Of a stretch of DNA of 64,000 nt, positions 3,334-44,427 are shown piece by piece; positions within the stretch are counted from its first letter, which is position 1, and the number at the start of each line of letters is the position of its first letter. The stretch lies in IMG/VR virus record IMGVR_UViG_3300013121_000046, one strand, 5' to 3'. The stretch is from a virus. Lineage: Duplodnaviria > Caudoviricetes. The notes below the pieces were generated by a model. The model worked only from the letters and a program-made list of their open reading frames with translations, had not been told where the DNA came from and ran no database searches. Position numbers and translations under genes: made by a program.

Positions 3334-6300
3334 TACTTATGCCCCGGCTTTGACTTATTCTCCATATACATATCAACGTGAGCTTCTAGAACCTTAAAGA
3401 AATTATCCTGTAGACCGATATTGACCTTAATGTTTCCCGAAATATCCGTAGAAGAGGCTGCGGGCATACCGGCTGTGGTAGTACCAGCGTTAGGTAAACC
3501 TAACCCAGTCTGAGTAAACTGAGCTACCGTAGGAGTCCCTAGCCTACCCCCTAGAGTCTGAGCCCTCTGGGCAATAGTTTGACCCTCTCCAGCCCGAACC
3601 GTACCTAAGGAATCCTGCACAAATTGCCCAAACATCAGACGATTATTCTGCACAGGATTAAAGGAACTTCCGGAAGCCACACCAAACGCTCTGCCTAACG
3701 CTCTATCCAGAAAATCTCTTTGCTTAACCAAGGCCATCTTTGTAATCTCAACACTCTGCTTCTGAAGTTCAGCTTCCTTCTCCTTATAGGAAGCCGACTG
3801 TAGGGCAGCCGCTTCTGAACCCATAGCCTCGGTCAAACGCCTCTTTTCATTTTCCAATAATTGCTTACCTAATTCGTACTCTTGCAGCTTTAGGTCTAGT
3901 TGAGCCTTACTTAATTCAAATATCTGAGAGTATGAAGCCCCCATGTATTCAGCCAGGTCTGTTTGAGCCGCTATAACCTGACTCTCAGCCCCAACTTTTC
4001 TCTGCATAACTGCGATGGCATCTTTCACAGCATTCGCTTCAGCGTCTCTAGCCTCCTTAGACTTATTGTATAACGCTATTTGCTTGGTATACAACTCCGT
4101 CTCCAGATTGGTTCGCATAGCAGCTATTTGATTCTGACCTTCTTGCTCAGTCAACTGACCACTGGCCACTCTAGCCCTAATCTTATCCGTCTCCCGGTTC
4201 ATAGTATCCAGGGCATCCCTTTGGGCCACTTGAAGATTCTTATGTATCTCCACTACATCGGCTCGAAGCGATGCCGCCATCTGTCTACCCAACTTGAGGG
4301 TCAACTCCTCACTTTCTTCTGCGCCTACCAACTGACCTCCAGCAGCAAGTAGGTTTCTTTGCCCCTCACGGAGTCGTACTCCCTGAGTTTGAAATGGTGT
4401 ATCTAAAACCTCTTTAACCGCCTGAAGAGATGCCTCAAATTTAGACAACTGAACCGCAGCTTTTTCCGCCTCTAATGCAGATCGTTTAAGTTTGAACTCT
4501 AATTGTCTCTCTGGAGTCCATTCTCCCTTATTCCTAAGCTCTTGCTCTACGGTGTTATATCCCCGAGCCCGAGCCATTAGAGTACTTTCTTCCAACTCCA
4601 TTGCTTGCAGGCTCTTACTATAGGCGGCTAAAATTCCGGCAGAACTTCCAAAGATACTAGTGGCTAATTTAGCCCGGGTTTGATATATTTGGGCTATATT
4701 CTTCTCAATAGATAATTGTTTGTTATATGCAGAATCTATCTGATCCAAAGTCGATACTGCTGATTTAGCCTCTGCATTAGTGGCCTCTAAATCAGCTATC
4801 TTACCGCGAATAGTAACATTCATCTGTGACAAAAACTTAAGCTGTTCCTCCTCTGCCTTGGAAAGTTTCTGTCCTCTAGCTTTCTTACTCTCCAATATCA
4901 GAGTTTCCTTAGTTACTAAGGCTAAAGCGTCCTGCTGTTGAGCTAAAGCCTCCCGATATAATACATTTGCATCTTCAACTCCAGCCCCATACTCTCTTAT
5001 TGTCGAATAAATATCTGCTTCCCCACCTCGTACAGCCGCTTTTCTTCTTTCTGCTTTTCTAAGACTTAGTACCGCCGCCTCCCTAGTATCCTTACCAGCG
5101 ATTTCTGCGTTAGCTCTATCCGCCTGAGCCATTTTTTCTTTTATAGCAGCCGATTTATCAGTCCCACTAGTGTTAAAAAGGTCGTTACGATTGGCATACA
5201 TACCCAACCCAAGGCCCACTGCGGCTCCGATACCAGTTCCTACTACCGGAATAAAACTCCCCGCAGCCGCTCCCGTAGCTGTGGCACCAGCAATACCTGA
5301 AACACCCCTAGCTATTTCCCAACCCCTCTCACCCACACCAAAAGCTGTCTTATCTTTACTCGCCCGAGCTTTATCTAAGGCCAAGCTAGTTACTAAGTCC
5401 GTCCCCACGGTTGCAAGAGCCCCTAATCCTATCCCTCTTATGGACCCCTTTATACTATTGCCAAGATTACCGCGAGTAAAGTATTTCCCAAGGAATCTAC
5501 CTACTCTGCCTCGGGAATCTCCAAACCCTCGCTGCCTTCGATTTTTTCGCCTACCAGATCGCGTAAGTACCGTACCTCCACCACTACTAGCACTCGTACT
5601 TTCCATAATTCTAAAGATACCTTTTACCTCCGAAAAAATTCCCCTTAAAGATATATTAGTCTCACCTAACGCGATAAGAGCATCCTTACTGGCAATATAC
5701 ATATAGGTGAGAGTCGCACCCCCAGCAACTATCGCTCCAGTTACTGGAGCACCACTTCCTAGGTACTTCTCCATAGAGTCGCCGAAAGCAGATGTTAAAT
5801 TGTCCGCCCAAACTTCTAGGGTTCGCTCCATTGACAATGGGCCAACTTTTTCAGATACATCACTCGCATGACGTAATTCCTGAATAAATTTTGCATCCTC
5901 ATACCCCTTAGTCCTAGCTAAGGCTCGAACAGGGTCAGTATCAACCTCTCGCATAAATCCAGGGTGTGAACGCTCCCTCTCTATAACCTGCTGAGTAATT
6001 TCAAGGGCGGCACCAGGGCCTACAGACCCTTGTAAATCCCGATACAATTTCTTAAATCTCTCCAAATCATTACCTACCGCCACCATCCTCTCAAAAGATC
6101 CAATTAGTTTCTTATGCTCCTCCCGAGTCAAGCCTAACTCTGCCCTTAGAGTTCTTAACCTTTCAAAATTCGTACCCATCTCCTTTGAGTTGCTAGACAA
6201 CATTCTAGCACTTCGCTCAAGGATAACATTATAGTCTGAAGTTTCTCTAGCTGCCGTACGCAGCGTGTTAATTTTCTGGTTAAAGGTTTGTAACAAACCT

Positions 6301-36567: not shown

Positions 36568-37137
36568 CTAGTCCAAGTCTCTTTCCATATCAAGTTCATC
36601 CCCACCCGAAGAGGATCCCCCCTGACGTTTCTCATATTCTGCCCGAGAGATAATCAGGGCCGCAGCCTTTTCCAGATCGGGCAAATATGTGGCCCCATAT
36701 CGCTCAATAATTGTCAAAAACTCGTTAATTTCGGGGGCCACCTTAGTGAAAACCTCCTTGCCACCATCATCCAAAACGATATCCCCCTCCTTATCTCGTT
36801 TAGGCTGTATCCAACAAAGGAAATGGTCCAAAATAGCAATATGATGGGGGGATATCTCTGGATCATTCCAAATTTGGCCGTTCAGAAGCAAAATGGCATC
36901 CAAACCATGATATTGCTTATGCAGAGCCGGGCAGAGCACCGTTTGACCTAACCGTACCCTCCCCTCGGGGGTAGGGCCCCACCCCTGATGCCAAGCCAAA
37001 CCTATTTGTGCTGAGGCTATTTCAGGATGAAACCTGACCACTAAGTCTTCTAAGATTCGGTATAATTCAGTTTTTACCGTGATTCCGTTAACTTCTTCAG
37101 TTTTAGCTATCGGGAATATGGTAGTTTTTCGGCTCAT
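36568..37137 (-). CDS. putative phage metallopeptidase-like protein, degenerate
   Basis: HPEI..A.I, LGQ, ILDHFLCW (canonical LxDHELxH) and EF..IIERYG motifs. Confidence 0.65.
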   Translation of the reverse strand: MSRKTTIFPIAKTEEVNGITVKTELYRILEDLVVRFHPEIASAQIGLAWHQGWGPTPEGRVRLGQTVLCPALHKQYHGLDAILLLNGQIWNDPEISPHHIAILDHFLCWIQPKRDKEGDIVLDDGGKEVFTKVAPEINEFLTIIERYGATYLPDLEKAAALIISRAEYEKRQGGSSSGGDELDMERDLD

Positions 37138-39805: not shown

Positions 39806-40363
39806 TTACTGGTACAAATTAACCTGATCTCCCCAGGAAGACCAACCCTCTTTTTTAGTTCTAGCGAACAATTCTAAGTATGGCCCAGGACTACAAGACT
39901 CTATAATCCGGTACATCTCATCAGGTTTTCTTGAGTGTTCACGTTTTCTAGTTGCTACCAAGTTGACCTGAGTTCTTCCCGGATCAAGGGTCCTCATCTT
40001 TCCTTTCACACCAAATAATAGGAGTTCAGTAACATTCCGAAAATAAAATCCAACGCCTCGACCATCAGGCCCACCGTCTTTTCGCACCTTGTACCACACA
40101 AGATTTGTTTTGTAGGTAAAACCCCAAGCCTGCATAACCTCTAAACCCCAGGGTAACAAGGCATTGGGAACCCATAGATACAGGTGGCTTTTAGGATTTG
40201 CTAAAGATTCTACTGGGAGTGCTCTAATCTCCTCAATGGACAGAGTACTATACCGGTGAAGTCGCTCATGTTCTGGTGCCATCTTCCCTGTAGAATTCTG
40301 GAATCTCCAGGGGGGGTCAGCAAGAATCGTAGAAAATTTGCTGCTTAAATCGGATAGTAGCAT
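39806..40363 (-). CDS. MT-A70 family adenine methyltransferase
   Basis: ADPPW, LYLW, WGFTYKT, G.YFRNVTE and REHSRKP motifs. Confidence 0.95.
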   Translation of the reverse strand: MLLSDLSSKFSTILADPPWRFQNSTGKMAPEHERLHRYSTLSIEEIRALPVESLANPKSHLYLWVPNALLPWGLEVMQAWGFTYKTNLVWYKVRKDGGPDGRGVGFYFRNVTELLLFGVKGKMRTLDPGRTQVNLVATRKREHSRKPDEMYRIIESCSPGPYLELFARTKKEGWSSWGDQVNLYQ

Positions 40364-40369
40364 ATGACT

Positions 40370-42334
40370 CTACCTAGGGACTTGATACACAAGGATACTC
40401 TCGTACCAATTACCAGACTTTGAAAATCTTGAGGGAATTCTATAGGGTATATCCTCTTTGAGCGGCCAAGGGGCGACTCGCTTCCAACTCTCTGCTGCGG
40501 GAGCCCGCCTAGGATTTCCTACTTGAATGCCTATTATAGCGCCCGGCTTCATAACTCTTTGAAGCATTTCAAATACCTTGGCAATCCATCTTTCATAATC
40601 TTCGATACTCTGACAAAAAACACAAACTTGAGATTTATCTTCAGCATATCGCTCATAATTAAAATACGGAGGGGATGTAAAACACAAGTCATACTCCAGT
40701 CCTTGGGGAGGGGACCAATTTTCTGCTCCAATTAAATGAAGAAAGATAGGTTTATCTACCTTTTTTTGAAGAGTTTGTCGTAAAGTTTGATTACCCATCA
40801 AAGTCTTTTCACTGGGATCCAACCCAGTATAGGACAAAACTTTTTCAGAGGCCCAGCAACCCACCATTCTACCGCCAAAGCCCGCTGAGAAATCAAGTAC
40901 ATGTCCAGGCTCCTGGAAAAATAGGTCACAGAAAGTCTTAGCTACAGCCGGGGGAAAGTTTCCAACTGTCTTTTTTTCATATTTAAGTGCTTGCAAAAGG
41001 TGTTTAGGCTCCAGGCCCTTGCCGGACTCTACGAGTCTGGTTAGGACTTTCTCAAGAATTTGAGAGTCCTGAAAAGCCCCTAAAGTCGTGATCTTTCTAG
41101 AGTTTATTCGGACACCCCAAATATGGGGGTGAAAGCTGGTACATAGATTGACCCCAGTATTTAGGTACTGCCAGGTTCTATCCTCTTTCCGCACCTGCGA
41201 TGGCTGCACCCGTTGAATTTGATCCAATGTCCGGGATATTTGCTTCTCGGAGTATTTCGGGTATGGGAATCCGGCTACCCGGTAAACGCTAAGCAAGGAT
41301 CGCACTGTCGCTTCTTTGGACAGCCCCCCGGTTTTTAGAGCCTTCAAAGCCTCGGACTGGCTATGATCGGCTGACTCAGGGTTTATGAAAGTGGGAAACT
41401 GCGTAAAAATCTGTTGTCGCGGTTGCATAAGGGCCTCGGACGCCAGAATCTCCTGAAAATTTTCCAGACTTTTGGGCCCTTTGACCAAGAATTTCCGCAC
41501 CCGCATCCCGGCTGGGATACTGTGTAGAGCCTGAACTCCCCAGCTACTTAGCTTTTTGATGAGTTTATCGGCCTCGTCCGGGAAATTAAGGAGTAACTTG
41601 GAGGTCCAGGAAGCGTGCCCTTTTCGAGATGTTCTCCCGGAGTCTGCAAACCAGGAAACCAGTACACCAGGGGTAACCCGGGAAGCCCCGTCAATCGGCC
41701 AGACTTTTTTCCCCTCCGGGTACAGTAAGTCCCACCATTTTTGCCAGTATGGGGAAGCCTCTGAAGTTACCCTACCCGTCAGGTACGAGGATCCATTACG
41801 AATGGTGTGCATCTGCTGATATTTGGCGGAGAAAAACTCTCCTAGAATATCCCGTTTTTTGAGTGCATAGCCGGTTTCCTGTAGGGGGTGATGGCATACA
41901 AAGTAGGGTACCCCACTTCGGGATCTTCGCAGGGTGGCTTTTCCTAGCAGTGTCCCAAGAATAAATTCCTCTACCTCTTCTGGGACTATTTGTGCTGGGA
42001 CCCGCTTATTAACTCGCTCTGTTTTGCTCAGCGGGGATATGCCATACTTAGCTCTGAGCCCCAAAACATGATGCCGCTTCATCTGATACTTCACCATAAT
42101 CTGGCGATCAGATAAAAGATTCTCTTGGTATTCTCGCTCCAGCACTTCTTTGGGGAGCCGCTTTTCCAGTCGCTCCCAATTAAACCGTAGTCGGCTAAGC
42201 CCGAATTTCTTCACATACCAGTCAATAACGTCCCGGGAGCATCCGAACTCTGCAACCAGGGGAGCAGCCCCCTCTTTTCGATATCGGGACTTTATCGCCT
42301 GCTTTAGACCGGGGTACTTTTCCGGGGGAGCCAT
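40370..42334 (-). CDS. HTH plus degenerate LAGLIDADG domain fused to an amino (N4C/N6A) DNA methyltransferase
   Basis: ILGTLLGKA and SWFADSG (LAGLIDADG_2-like); VLDFSAGFGGR (motif I) and FTSPPY (motif IV). Confidence 0.8.
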   Translation of the reverse strand: MAPPEKYPGLKQAIKSRYRKEGAAPLVAEFGCSRDVIDWYVKKFGLSRLRFNWERLEKRLPKEVLEREYQENLLSDRQIMVKYQMKRHHVLGLRAKYGISPLSKTERVNKRVPAQIVPEEVEEFILGTLLGKATLRRSRSGVPYFVCHHPLQETGYALKKRDILGEFFSAKYQQMHTIRNGSSYLTGRVTSEASPYWQKWWDLLYPEGKKVWPIDGASRVTPGVLVSWFADSGRTSRKGHASWTSKLLLNFPDEADKLIKKLSSWGVQALHSIPAGMRVRKFLVKGPKSLENFQEILASEALMQPRQQIFTQFPTFINPESADHSQSEALKALKTGGLSKEATVRSLLSVYRVAGFPYPKYSEKQISRTLDQIQRVQPSQVRKEDRTWQYLNTGVNLCTSFHPHIWGVRINSRKITTLGAFQDSQILEKVLTRLVESGKGLEPKHLLQALKYEKKTVGNFPPAVAKTFCDLFFQEPGHVLDFSAGFGGRMVGCWASEKVLSYTGLDPSEKTLMGNQTLRQTLQKKVDKPIFLHLIGAENWSPPQGLEYDLCFTSPPYFNYERYAEDKSQVCVFCQSIEDYERWIAKVFEMLQRVMKPGAIIGIQVGNPRRAPAAESWKRVAPWPLKEDIPYRIPSRFSKSGNWYESILVYQVPR

Positions 42335-42346
42335 TTGTGACCCTAT

Positions 42347-43345
42347 TCAGGGGGCTAGGTGTGCAGCTTCCAGAGTTTTCTGATATTTTCTTTCCAGAAA
42401 TGGTTGGGTTAGGTCTGAGTATAGATAATCCTTCAGCCGAATTATGTCTTCCAAACCTTGCCAGGTGGCTTTCCAGGTTATTCCACTTTTACTGGCCGGA
42501 TCGACATCAAAGTATCCTGGACCGACTCCAGCCTTGGTCATCAGTAGCTCTCGAAGGGTTCCCAGGAATCTGGGAGTTCCCAGGAGATACCAATGCCTTT
42601 TAACGGGTCTTCCTGGGTAGTGATAAAGTCCCACACTACCGTCCCCATCGAAGTACCCACGAATAAAGTGGGGAAGAAATTCATCCGGAACCATAGGGAA
42701 AGGATCGTCACGGTTGGACTTATTGGGGTACATCCCGTGAGTTTCGATCAGGGACTGAGCCAGGTAGGTAGAGCAAATAACACAACTCGTCATTTGGGAA
42801 AGGCGGCCACTTATCTGCCGCACTATACGTCTTCGCACTTTATGCTGTGAGCCCAATCGGGCTCTTGTCTCTAAAATGAGAGATTCATCCAGAGTCTGCA
42901 CATACAGTCGGTACATAGTGACTTTTTTTAATCGCTTATCGTATCCCAGGGAACCATCGGCAAAACCATTCCCTAGATCGTAAGCCATAGTCGGAGACCA
43001 GTGCTCAAAGTAATCGGTCTTCAATGTCTCCCGGTTATTTTTCCGAACCTTTGATGCCGGGCTCAGTATTTTTCTCTTCTCCAAACGGCTGCTTACTGTA
43101 GACTCACAGCACCCAAATTTCTTTGAAATACTCAAGATTGACTCGGTGTCCCCAAATTTATCCACGTAAGCATCTAGTTCCTTGGGGTTTTGAAAATACT
43201 TATTGAGAGATTCAATTCCTAAGATACGGCAACGGTAATAAAAGGTGGTCCCTTTTATCCCCAATATTTTGGCAGCGGCGCGCATACCATGCTCTTGGAC
43301 TAAGTTACGGTAATTTTCAATCTCTTCTGGAGACAGTTTGAGCAT
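42347..43345 (-). CDS. free-standing LAGLIDADG homing endonuclease with N-terminal HTH
   Basis: AYDLGNGFADGS and FIRGYFDGDGS motifs; C-terminal LY...FLERK. Confidence 0.88.
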   Translation of the reverse strand: MLKLSPEEIENYRNLVQEHGMRAAAKILGIKGTTFYYRCRILGIESLNKYFQNPKELDAYVDKFGDTESILSISKKFGCCESTVSSRLEKRKILSPASKVRKNNRETLKTDYFEHWSPTMAYDLGNGFADGSLGYDKRLKKVTMYRLYVQTLDESLILETRARLGSQHKVRRRIVRQISGRLSQMTSCVICSTYLAQSLIETHGMYPNKSNRDDPFPMVPDEFLPHFIRGYFDGDGSVGLYHYPGRPVKRHWYLLGTPRFLGTLRELLMTKAGVGPGYFDVDPASKSGITWKATWQGLEDIIRLKDYLYSDLTQPFLERKYQKTLEAAHLAP

Positions 43346-43480: not shown

Positions 43481-43523
43481 AAAAAGAAAAAGGCCAGTTG
43501 GAGTTTTCACCCCAACTGGCCTT
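43481..43523 (-). terminator. intrinsic terminator after the major capsid gene
   Basis: AAGGCCAGTTGG/CCAACTGGCCTT stem plus U-rich tail. Confidence 0.85.
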
Positions 43524-43566: not shown

Positions 43567-44427
43567 CTAGCGAGTAATCAAAATTCTCTGGCTAGATAAA
43601 AAGTTGTAGGCCAAGATTCCGAGTTGCTCGAAGATTGAGAAACCAACTTTCCGCTCCTCAGGACGGTCAGCCGTGATGACCGAAAGCTCGGTACGAACGG
43701 GCATACGTCCGTAAAATTCACGCTCACCACAAACATACAATGTGCCAGCAGGCACCACCCGGGACTTAATGACCTGACAACCATAAATCTTGCCAAGAAC
43801 ACCAGTCCGGAACATTGACTCCTGAGTCTCAGGACTCAAAGCATCGCGATCAAACTTCCGCAGATCAGCATAGTCCCGACCGTTCATAAAGATCCGGGCG
43901 GCACGAATTCCATGCTCCTCAATAGCTCCAATAGCATCAGAAATCACATCAGCAGTCAGAGGAGCCGCCACACTGATATCTGTGTGAGGATTAGCCGCAT
44001 CAGCCGCTAAAGCATCAATGGTCGAGAAGACTCTCACGTCTTCCTTCTCTTTGACACCAGCCACACCCAACTCAATGGTACGCTTAATCATATCGTACCG
44101 ACGTTCCTTGATCTGCGTCAGGGGAATCATAGGAACGGTAGCTAACTCAAACAGAGGAGCCGAAACTCTAGTTGACTGAGCCAAGACAGTGATCGAATCA
44201 CCACCCTCGGCCACAGCATAGGCCGGAATAATTGGATCCTTGTCATAAATGGCCAAAGCACCGTCCTCGATATCCTCCACCAAGAAGGCCTTACGACCCA
44301 CGGCAGCATAATCGCGGAACCGACGCAATGAAGGGGTCATCTTGGCAGCCATTGTCGTACGGCCAGCCCCCGAACCAATATACCGAGCGATAATCGACGA
44401 GAATGTCTGAGGTGATGGAGTACCCAT
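43567..44427 (-). CDS. major capsid protein (short HK97 fold)
   Basis: 286 aa; P-domain/A-domain patterns (A..VAEGG, IFMN.RDY.DL, GKIYG.QVI.S.VVPAG..Y, GF..FEQLG); own RBS and terminator; head module context. Confidence 0.85.
   Translation of the reverse strand: MGTPSPQTFSSIIARYIGSGAGRTTMAAKMTPSLRRFRDYAAVGRKAFLVEDIEDGALAIYDKDPIIPAYAVAEGGDSITVLAQSTRVSAPLFELATVPMIPLTQIKERRYDMIKRTIELGVAGVKEKEDVRVFSTIDALAADAANPHTDISVAAPLTADVISDAIGAIEEHGIRAARIFMNGRDYADLRKFDRDALSPETQESMFRTGVLGKIYGCQVIKSRVVPAGTLYVCGEREFYGRMPVRTELSVITADRPEERKVGFSIFEQLGILAYNFLSSQRILITR

What the first reader, a model, noticed from the sequence alone, without database searches (positions are those of the whole stretch)
40370..42334. 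Apparently inactivated LAGLIDADG endonuclease fused to a DNA methyltransferase, beside an intact LAGLIDADG and an MT-A70
Seen: in one 654-aa ORF, HTH repeats precede a LAGLIDADG_2-like domain whose first motif reads GTLLGKA (canonical GxLLGDG; catalytic Asp replaced by Lys) and whose second reads WFADSG. An intact amino-MTase follows (DFSAGFGG, SPPY). The gene starts 12 nt after an intact LAGLIDADG gene and is followed 6 nt later by an MT-A70 gene. Inference: a domesticated homing-endonuclease domain may guide methylation to a long target. With the active nuclease this could form a homing-endonuclease-derived restriction-modification or self-protection unit.
Basis: partly seen in the sequence, partly recalled or inferred. 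Interest (0 to 1): 0.75.

Follow-up and report, generated by a model that had tools for sequence, protein, structure and literature searches.

The report
Dead homing nuclease fused to methyltransferase
A large phage carries one gene that joins an I-SceI-type homing nuclease that has lost its catalytic residues to an intact DNA-type methyltransferase; it is a decaying member of a widespread, apparently undescribed nuclease-methyltransferase fusion family, and the two neighbouring genes are unrelated later arrivals, not partners.

Summary
The 654-aa ORF at 40370-42334 (-) has helix-turn-helix (HTH) repeats, a complete I-SceI-type LAGLIDADG core, a disordered linker and an intact amino-methyltransferase. 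K132, S232 and Q308 stand where I-SceI has D44, D145 and K223.

- The protein belongs to a large, virus-only family of homing-nuclease/methyltransferase fusions. These lie just downstream of a conserved head gene in big phages and are patchily present there.
- 78 of 88 fused LAGLIDADG domains keep both catalytic Asp, so this copy is a rare dead one.
- Dead copies arose independently. Their LAGLIDADG cores have diverged faster than their own methyltransferase domains (p about 1e-4), which looks like decay rather than domestication.
- The upstream intact LAGLIDADG gene is from another LAGLIDADG family. It is absent from all relatives' loci, and its own relatives sit in other contexts. The MT-A70 gene is not conserved here either. 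A paired restriction-modification unit is therefore not supported.

Most likely this is an orphaned methyltransferase with a decaying nuclease, next to a second, independent homing-endonuclease invasion of the same hot spot. This scan found the fusion family earlier on other DNA. I found no paper describing it.

The parts
40370..42334 (-). P0001, 654-aa HTH + dead LAGLIDADG_2 + methyltransferase fusion gene
42002..42307 (-). N-terminal helix-turn-helix repeats (residues about 10-111)
   Evidence: helices in the model; HTH_23 and related hits in relatives; about 40% identity to clade relatives
41438..41980 (-). I-SceI-type two-lobed LAGLIDADG core (residues 119-299)
   Evidence: alpha-beta-beta-alpha-beta-beta-alpha fold twice; Foldseek I-SceI/I-WcaI TMt 0.68-0.73; family profile versus I-SceI E 2e-35
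41939..41941 (-). codon K132, at the position of catalytic D44 of I-SceI
   Evidence: D in 47 of 51 aligned fusions
41639..41641 (-). codon S232, at the position of catalytic D145 of I-SceI
   Evidence: D in 48 of 51; I-SceI D145A does not cleave (PMC3928301)
41411..41413 (-). codon Q308, at the position of I-SceI K223
   Evidence: K in 50 of 51 aligned fusions; this copy is the only exception; I-SceI K223I is a nickase
41357..41425 (-). disordered linker (residues 304-326) between the nuclease and methyltransferase modules
   Evidence: pLDDT below 50
40373..41356 (-). methyltransferase module (residues 327-654): helical N-subdomain plus Rossmann catalytic domain
   Evidence: pLDDT 93.7 when folded alone
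40868..40894 (-). SAM-binding motif I, DFSAGFGGR (residues 481-489)
   Evidence: D481, G485, G487, R489 invariant in A2
40664..40678 (-). motif IV, TSPPY (residues 553-557)
   Evidence: nearly invariant in the family
42347..43345 (-). P0002, free-standing LAGLIDADG_3-type homing endonuclease gene, apparently intact; an insertion relative to related phages
   Evidence: absent from L001-L009
39806..40363 (-). P0003, MT-A70-family methyltransferase with DPPW; not conserved at this place in relatives
43567..44427 (-). 286-aa major-head-protein-like gene (phrog_2522), the conserved upstream anchor of the hot spot
43490..43523 (-). strong terminator-like hairpin (15-bp stem, T run) after the head gene

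Best explanation
P0001 is a three-module phage protein: HTH repeats, an I-SceI-type LAGLIDADG core, and a methyltransferase joined by a flexible linker. It belongs to a large virus-only family in which a homing-nuclease module is fused in frame to the N-terminus of one methyltransferase family. In a clade of large phages the gene sits in a variable slot just downstream of a conserved head gene, where it comes and goes. In most members the nuclease looks active. In this phage it is dead: three of the four I-SceI active-site positions checked are replaced, and its core is drifting under relaxed constraint. The reading frame survives because the intact methyltransferase lies downstream in the same ORF. 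The methyltransferase, probably a DNA N4-cytosine or other amino-methyltransferase, most likely still modifies phage DNA as an orphan methylase. The upstream gene P0002 is a separate, apparently active free-standing homing endonuclease of another LAGLIDADG family that invaded the same intergenic hot spot. The MT-A70 gene is an independent second methylase. Shown here: the domain anatomy, the residue replacements, the family distribution, the synteny, the lack of co-occurrence and the faster divergence of dead cores. Inferred: loss of cleavage, the DNA substrate and base specificity of the methyltransferase, and its protective role.
For: Anatomy and fold. Equivalence of K132/S232/Q308 with I-SceI D44/D145/K223; published effects of D145A, D44N/D145A and K223I. 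Family: 2689 hits, and 83 of the top 150 representatives are LAGLIDADG + methyltransferase; 78 of 88 fused domains are D/D. The same methyltransferase family also carries LAGLIDADG_3, HNH, DUF7487 or ParB_N modules in front. Fused and unfused states need at least 9 changes on the methyltransferase tree. Synteny: a head-gene homologue (50-77% identity) lies directly upstream in all 8 related loci that have upstream sequence. Among 80 IMG/VR loci with this head gene, the next gene is LAGLIDADG + methyltransferase in 12, another methyltransferase form in 11, LAGLIDADG alone in 3 and none of these in about 30 with enough sequence. Decay: the LAGLIDADG/methyltransferase identity ratios of P0009, P0001 and P0055 rank 1st, 2nd and 4th lowest of 51 (Mann-Whitney p 1e-4), while the HTH/methyltransferase ratio is unchanged. 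P0001 has the lowest Pfam LAGLIDADG_2 score among the 10 fusions scanned (31 versus 42-133 bits). Independent deaths: P0009 is sister to D/D P0008 (96/91), P0001 groups with D/D P0007, and the AU test gives p 0.045 against a P0001+P0009 clade. The neighbours are not partners.
Against: The dead core is still full-length and modelled with high confidence. The HTH repeats are as conserved as the methyltransferase. Some DNA-binding role for the N-terminal half is therefore not excluded. No close relative (above 34% identity) exists, so dN/dS could not be measured. Faster divergence could also reflect a change of specificity. The three dead sequences are few and not fully independent. The DNA-methyltransferase assignment rests on motifs, weak profile hits and automatic names. 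The nearest solved folds are tRNA m2G methyltransferases.
Confidence: 0.6

Rival explanations
1. Domesticated guide. The catalytically dead LAGLIDADG core, together with the HTH repeats, is kept as a long-site DNA-binding module that directs or tethers the methyltransferase to particular sequences. This resembles engineered dead-I-SceI fusions, or WhiA, where a dead LAGLIDADG fold serves as a DNA-binding scaffold.
For: The full two-lobed fold is retained with high pLDDT and without deletions. The HTH repeats are as conserved as the methyltransferase. The methyltransferase has no C-terminal recognition domain after motif IV. The same methyltransferase family is also found fused to other DNA-binding modules such as ParB_N and zinc fingers. 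Inactive I-SceI D44N/D145A keeps binding its site and works as a targeting module (PMC3258161). WhiA is a precedent (PMC3240954, PMC3384342).
Against: Dead copies are scattered singletons, not a conserved clade. Their cores evolve faster relative to the methyltransferase than active ones do. A disordered 23-residue linker separates the modules. Standalone family members of about 340 aa lack any such module, so the methyltransferase does not need it.
Confidence: 0.2
2. Homing-endonuclease-based restriction-modification unit. The active neighbour P0002 cuts a long site, and P0001 (with or without MT-A70) methylates and protects that site in the phage genome.
For: The three genes are tightly packed and co-oriented (12-nt and 6-nt gaps), with no terminator between them. 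P0002 keeps all family-invariant catalytic residues.
Against: P0002 is LAGLIDADG_3-type and P0001 is LAGLIDADG_2-type, with no detectable similarity, so a shared specificity by descent is unlikely. No P0002 or MT-A70 homologue occurs in the eight related loci. P0002's closest relatives lie in unrelated contexts without such a methyltransferase. In another relative (L009) a different LAGLIDADG gene occupies the same slot, as expected for repeated selfish invasions.
Confidence: 0.05
3. The C-terminal enzyme is not a DNA methyltransferase. It would be an RNA or protein amino-methyltransferase of the Trm11/TrmN/RlmL type, and the nuclease module is merely an in-frame selfish passenger.
For: The best solved structural neighbours are Trm11, TrmN and Trm14 (Z 17-18, about 175-179 residues aligned at 2.5-3.0 A). 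No DNA methyltransferase appears among the 50 best. One source names a relative 'tRNA G10 N-methylase Trm11'. Motif I precedes motif IV, as in those enzymes.
Against: The family profile hits the TTHA0409 modification methylase (4e-10) and DNA N4-cytosine methyltransferases (7e-5). It also gives Pfam N6_N4_Mtase and PADLOC Type II methyltransferase hits. The F-T-S-P-P-Y motif fits the N4-cytosine signature (PROSITE PS00093, from my own knowledge). Relatives are virus-only, automatically named N4-cytosine DNA methyltransferases, and fused to DNA-acting modules. A standalone relative sits in a phage replication and nucleotide-metabolism module.
Confidence: 0.1

Closest known systems
I-SceI and I-WcaI (monomeric two-motif LAGLIDADG homing endonucleases, Pfam PF03161)
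   Same: Same two-lobed fold (Foldseek TMt 0.68-0.73). The family profile matches them at E 2e-35 over about 200 residues. K210 is kept at the position of I-SceI K122.
   Different: The positions of catalytic D44, D145 and of K223 are K, S and Q here. The protein is preceded by HTH repeats and fused to a methyltransferase. It is a free-standing phage gene, not encoded in an intron.
Homing-nuclease/methyltransferase fusions behind the head gene of large phages
   Same: Same domain order, same methyltransferase family and the same slot after the head gene.
   Different: This copy has lost the nuclease catalytic residues, which 78 of 88 domains keep. It is separated from the head gene by an extra free-standing LAGLIDADG_3 gene.
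Free-standing homing endonuclease genes of large phages and their gain-decay-loss cycle (established knowledge of the field, from my own knowledge)
   Same: Patchy presence at a fixed intergenic spot next to a conserved gene, stacking of different endonuclease genes in one slot, and sporadic inactivation.
   Different: Here the endonuclease is translationally fused to a cargo enzyme, so decay proceeds by missense changes while the frame is kept.
[quoted passage not shown]
   Same: A homing endonuclease element associated in frame with a phage methylase gene, without intein or intron features.
   Different: There the HNH is read in another frame, inside the methylase. Here the LAGLIDADG is an in-frame N-terminal module separated by a linker.
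WhiA and engineered inactive I-SceI fusions (PMC3240954, PMC3384342, PMC3258161)
   Same: A catalytically dead LAGLIDADG scaffold combined with HTH or another enzyme, usable as a DNA-binding module.
   Different: WhiA is an old family conserved in most Gram-positive bacteria. The dead copies here are sporadic and fast-evolving.
Single-chain restriction-modification enzymes (Type IIC/IIG) and the artificial Eco29kI R-M fusion (PMC3039593)
   Same: A nuclease and a methyltransferase in one polypeptide.
   Different: To my knowledge no LAGLIDADG nuclease is known in restriction enzymes. In this copy the nuclease is dead. Shared specificity of the two modules is untested.

Membership tests
LAGLIDADG_2 / I-SceI-type homing endonuclease | Pfam PF03161 above the gathering score | tested here: met
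   31.2 bits versus cutoff 25, residues 123-263
LAGLIDADG_2 / I-SceI-type homing endonuclease | Two pseudo-symmetric alpha-beta-beta-alpha-beta-beta-alpha lobes | tested here: met
   Model secondary structure for residues 119-299; I-SceI 1r7m and I-WcaI 6x1j are the top Foldseek hits
LAGLIDADG_2 / I-SceI-type homing endonuclease | Acidic catalytic residue at the end of each LAGLIDADG helix (I-SceI D44, D145) | tested here: not met
   K132 and S232 occupy these columns; Q308 also replaces the K223 equivalent
LAGLIDADG_2 / I-SceI-type homing endonuclease | Site-specific DNA cleavage | not testable with these tools
   Needs a cleavage assay
   Full-length alignment to P0006-P0009 and others
   Same slot as in L001-L007 and L009; here an extra 999-nt gene (P0002) lies between the two
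Amino DNA methyltransferase (Pfam PF01555 N6_N4_Mtase) | Pfam above the gathering score; motif I (FxGxG-like) and motif IV (S/D/N)PP(Y/F) present | tested here: met
   27.4 bits versus 26.7 (marginal); DFSAGFGGR and TSPPY lie in invariant columns
Amino DNA methyltransferase (Pfam PF01555 N6_N4_Mtase) | Beta-class motif order (IV before I) | tested here: not met
   Motif I at 481-489 precedes motif IV at 553-557. Profile hits to beta-class enzymes map in permuted order. The fold is closest to Trm11/TrmN.
Amino DNA methyltransferase (Pfam PF01555 N6_N4_Mtase) | Methylates DNA | not testable with these tools
   Needs methylome sequencing
Restriction-modification pair (P0002 with P0001, with or without P0003) | Nuclease and methyltransferase genes co-occur in relatives | tested here: not met
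   No P0002 or MT-A70 homologue in 8 related loci; P0002's relatives lie in other contexts
Restriction-modification pair (P0002 with P0001, with or without P0003) | Same DNA target for cutting and methylation | not testable with these tools
   The two LAGLIDADG domains are from different families with no similarity, which argues against it but is not a test
Domesticated dead-LAGLIDADG DNA-binding proteins (WhiA-like) | The dead form is conserved as a clade under constraint | tested here: not met
   Dead copies are singletons whose nearest relatives are D/D; they have the lowest LAGLIDADG/methyltransferase identity ratios
Intein | Hint/splicing blocks flanking the endonuclease inside a host protein | tested here: not met
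   No intein or Hint Pfam hit at E up to 1. The LAGLIDADG module lies in the N-terminal half with only HTH repeats before it. For contrast, P0005 has Intein_splicing.

The most novel reading that the evidence does not exclude
The nuclease-plus-DNA-modifier fusions in this hot spot may be phage-borne, single-chain restriction-modification-like or self-protecting homing elements. They include LAGLIDADG-, HNH- or LAGLIDADG_3-methyltransferase fusions and Vsr-like nuclease fused to Mom. In this reading the nuclease cuts unmodified rival-phage or host DNA and the fused modifier protects the carrier. P0001 would then be the orphan stage. Its nuclease is dead, but the methyltransferase is kept because it still gives immunity against active relatives in co-infecting phages; the HTH repeats, and perhaps the dead core, would serve as its site-finder.
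Probability: 0.2. Interest if true: 0.75.

Novelty: new variant of a known kind. Interest (0 to 1): 0.5.

Why it matters
Homing endonucleases and orphan phage methylases are each well known. A large family that fuses them at one hot spot behind the head gene of big phages is not described in the papers I could search. Different nuclease folds are joined there to different DNA modifiers.

This window adds a natural nuclease-dead member. It shows that the nuclease can die while the methyltransferase and the HTH repeats stay conserved, and that dead cores then drift. That pattern argues that the methyltransferase is the part useful to the phage. It also gives a ready control for experiments asking whether the nuclease module sets methylation specificity or whether the methylase shields DNA from the nuclease. 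If the modules do share a target, these would be the first restriction-modification-like enzymes built on a LAGLIDADG nuclease, with very long sites.

Tried and rejected
- Megablast of the region against cultured and deposited phages found nothing. tblastn found one full-length relative, in an uncultured 485-kb phage.
- No whole genome is held for this window.
- NCBIfam gave no hit for any of the three genes.
- phmmer of P0001 and P0002 against PDB sequences gave only weak hits. The family profile was needed.
- DNA alignment of the head-gene-to-fusion intergenic regions was too diverged to define the P0002 insertion point.
- My own HMM scores for the LAGLIDADG domain were seeded from P0001 and are therefore biased. 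I used Pfam scores and identity ratios instead.
- I looked for the reverse state (nuclease intact, methyltransferase motifs dead). This was inconclusive because the set was collected by methyltransferase similarity.
- An intein reading was rejected: there are no splicing blocks.
- An assembly or frameshift artefact was rejected: the architecture recurs in more than 80 cluster representatives.
- Literature searches for LAGLIDADG-methyltransferase fusions returned only analogues.
- dN/dS on the dead core was not possible, because no relative is closer than 34% identity.
Full report
**What is in the sequence.** The window is phage-like. Nearly all long ORFs are on the minus strand, with head genes and nucleotide-metabolism genes around the finding. 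It comes from a 236-kb contig, and no whole genome is held for it.

The ORF at 40370..42334 (-) encodes 654 aa (P0001).
- Pfam finds LAGLIDADG_2 at residues 123-263 (31.2 bits, cutoff 25) and N6_N4_Mtase at 549-630 (27.4 bits, cutoff 26.7).
- PHROGs finds a LAGLIDADG homing endonuclease family and an unannotated family covering residues 448-610.
- The upstream ORF 42347..43345 (P0002, 332 aa) matches phrog_4645 'endonuclease' at 5e-29.
- The downstream ORF 39806..40363 (P0003) is MT-A70 at 2e-31 and has DPPW.
- A strong terminator-like hairpin (43523-43490) follows the head gene. None lies between the three genes.

**Structure.** I modelled the whole protein with 51 full-length relatives as alignment (mean pLDDT 88). 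The model shows:
- helices 10-111, the HTH repeats;
- a complete two-lobed LAGLIDADG core at 119-299;
- a disordered linker at 304-326;
- a methyltransferase at 327-654.

The best solved matches for the nuclease part are I-SceI and I-WcaI (TMt 0.68-0.73). The family profile hits I-SceI at E 2e-35.

The printed alignment against I-SceI gives these equivalences:

| P0001 residue | I-SceI position | State in the aligned fusions |
|---|---|---|
| K132 | D44 | D in 47 of 51 |
| S232 | D145 | D in 48 of 51 |
| Q308 | K223 | K in 50 of 51; this protein is the only exception |
| K210 | K122 | kept |

In I-SceI, D145A abolishes cleavage and K223I gives a nickase (PMC3928301). D44N/D145A is used as an inactive DNA-binding module (PMC3258161). 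Loss of cleavage in P0001 is therefore a strong inference, but it has not been shown.

**The family.** An exhaustive HMMER search found 2689 relatives (E up to 1e-3). Of the 150 best cluster representatives, 83 carry a LAGLIDADG_2 domain in front of the same methyltransferase. The rest are about 340-aa standalone methyltransferases or carry other N-terminal modules.
- Of 88 fused LAGLIDADG domains, 78 keep Asp at both catalytic columns.
- Exceptions at both columns are P0001 (K/S), P0009 (T/S), P0055 (G/G) and the first of two domains in P0012 (N/R).
- Other members have LAGLIDADG_3, HNH, DUF7487 or a second methyltransferase in front. Atlas clusters also show ParB_N fusions.
- On a tree of the methyltransferase domain, fused and unfused forms are interleaved. 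At least 9 changes are forced by well-supported branches.

**Genomic place.** In all eight related loci with upstream sequence (L001-L007, L009), the fusion gene lies directly after a homologue of the window's 286-aa head protein (50-77% identity). The fusion proteins themselves are only 24-33% identical.

I then fetched 80 IMG/VR loci with this head gene. The next gene was:
- LAGLIDADG + methyltransferase in 12;
- another form of this methyltransferase, some with zinc fingers, in 11;
- a free-standing LAGLIDADG in 3;
- none of these in about 30 loci with enough sequence.

The alternatives in that slot include a Vsr/DUF559-like nuclease fused to Mom, an RRXRR protein, a SAM lyase-like protein, an unrelated methyltransferase, a RecQ-like helicase and NrdD. 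The slot is therefore a variable hot spot, rich in DNA-modification and nuclease genes. The fusion comes and goes there as a mobile element would. Earlier reports of this scan reached the same picture on other genomes. My synteny result preceded that look-up.

**The neighbours are not partners.**
- P0002 belongs to the LAGLIDADG_3 family of free-standing endonucleases. It keeps every invariant residue of that family: ADG, FDGDG and the PNKS lysine.
- It has no detectable similarity to the LAGLIDADG_2 core of P0001.
- No homologue of P0002, of the MT-A70 gene or of the dCTP deaminase occurs in the eight related loci.
- P0002's closest relatives (38-44% identity) lie in other contexts, where none of the called genes shown is a LAGLIDADG-methyltransferase fusion.
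- In L009 a different, LAGLIDADG_2-type free-standing gene occupies the same position between the head gene and the fusion. In the 485-kb phage the extra LAGLIDADG is fused in as a first domain.

Repeated, independent endonuclease invasions of one intergenic slot explain this better than a designed pair.

**Decay or domestication?** Each fully dead copy has a nearest relative that keeps D/D.
- P0009 is sister to P0008 (support 96/91).
- P0001 groups with P0007.
- A P0001+P0009 clade costs 20.9 log-likelihood units (AU p 0.045, borderline).

For each of the 51 aligned fusions I compared mean identity to all others in the LAGLIDADG core with that in the methyltransferase.
- The ratio is lowest for P0009 (0.68) and P0001 (0.73), and fourth lowest for P0055 (0.75). 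The median of the D/D proteins is 0.93.
- Mann-Whitney gives p 1e-4 for the three fully dead copies.
- The HTH/methyltransferase ratio does not differ (p 0.35).
- As an example, P0008 and P0009 share 57% identity in the HTH part, 50% in the methyltransferase and only 28% in the core.
- P0001 also has the lowest Pfam LAGLIDADG_2 score among the 10 fusions scanned.

The cores that lost catalysis are therefore drifting, while the frame is kept for the downstream methyltransferase. The caveats are that there are only three sequences, they are not fully independent, and a shift of specificity could look similar. The conserved HTH repeats leave room for a retained DNA-binding role.

**The methyltransferase.** All family-invariant residues are present: DFSAGFGGR and TSPPY. 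Folded alone it gives pLDDT 93.7.

Evidence pointing away from DNA:
- The nearest solved folds are the tRNA m2G enzymes Trm11, TrmN and Trm14 (Z 17-18).
- No DNA methyltransferase appears in the best 50.
- Motif I precedes motif IV.

Evidence pointing to DNA:
- The profile hits the TTHA0409 modification methylase (4e-10) and DNA N4-cytosine methyltransferases (7e-5).
- PADLOC Type II methyltransferase models hit the motif IV region.
- Viral structural neighbours and Atlas clusters are virus-only and automatically named N4-cytosine DNA methyltransferases.
- A standalone relative in a Vibrio phage lies among replication and nucleotide-metabolism genes.
- F-T-S-P-P-Y fits the PROSITE N4 signature (from my own knowledge).

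I read it as a DNA amino-methyltransferase, possibly m4C, with moderate confidence.

**Verdict.** The dead nuclease is real. The most likely story is an orphaned methyltransferase carrying a decaying homing-nuclease module, beside a second, independent homing-endonuclease insertion and an unrelated MT-A70 methylase.

The guide hypothesis remains possible (about 0.2). The three-gene restriction-modification unit is unlikely (about 0.05).

At family level, different nuclease folds are repeatedly fused to different DNA modifiers in one slot. This keeps open a more novel reading: self-protecting homing elements or phage-borne single-chain restriction-modification-like enzymes. Under that reading this copy would be the orphan-methylase stage.

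I found no paper describing LAGLIDADG-methyltransferase fusions. The nearest published analogue is the hidden HNH element in a mycobacteriophage methylase (PMC11855218).

Noticed in passing
window 41426-41437 (-): Inside the disordered linker, an in-frame ATG (M303) is preceded by GAGG with a 5-nt spacer. It could give a methyltransferase-only product by internal initiation, or it may be chance.
   Followed up: partly
L047:3570-5078 and L079:5580-7187: In the same slot after the head gene, other phages carry a Vsr/DUF559/REase_MTES_1575-like nuclease fused to a Mom-family DNA modification enzyme. This is a second kind of nuclease-plus-modifier fusion.
   Followed up: partly
L001:3131-6820 (LR745208, 485-kb uncultured phage): A 1229-aa protein with two LAGLIDADG_2 domains, this methyltransferase and C-terminal CGNR zinc fingers. 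The first LAGLIDADG domain has N and R at the catalytic columns; the second is D/D.
   Followed up: partly
L009:2611-3489 and 3482-5413: A free-standing LAGLIDADG_2 gene overlaps the start of the fusion gene by 8 nt, in the same slot that P0002 occupies in the window. Homing endonuclease genes stack here.
   Followed up: partly
window 43490-43523 (-): Strong terminator-like hairpin (15-bp stem, 8 GC pairs, T run) right after the head gene. P0002, P0001, P0003 and the dCTP deaminase gene follow without another terminator and look like one transcription unit.
   Followed up: no
window 36568-37137 (-): A 189-aa ORF with a weak match to a PHROG transposase family (phrog_513, 2.7e-5), a few kb from the finding.
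   Followed up: no
L027:2129-3328; L070:1593-2459; L013:6004-6648: Other occupants of the slot after the head gene: an RRXRR protein, a DUF3293/SAM-lyase-like protein and an unrelated class I methyltransferase. The slot collects DNA-modification and possible anti-restriction functions.
   Followed up: no
P0001 residues 327-470 (window 40925-41356): The helical N-terminal subdomain of the methyltransferase (conserved GFPYP and C..F.PH.W motifs) was barely covered by any structural match. It may be the family's own DNA-recognition element.
   Followed up: no
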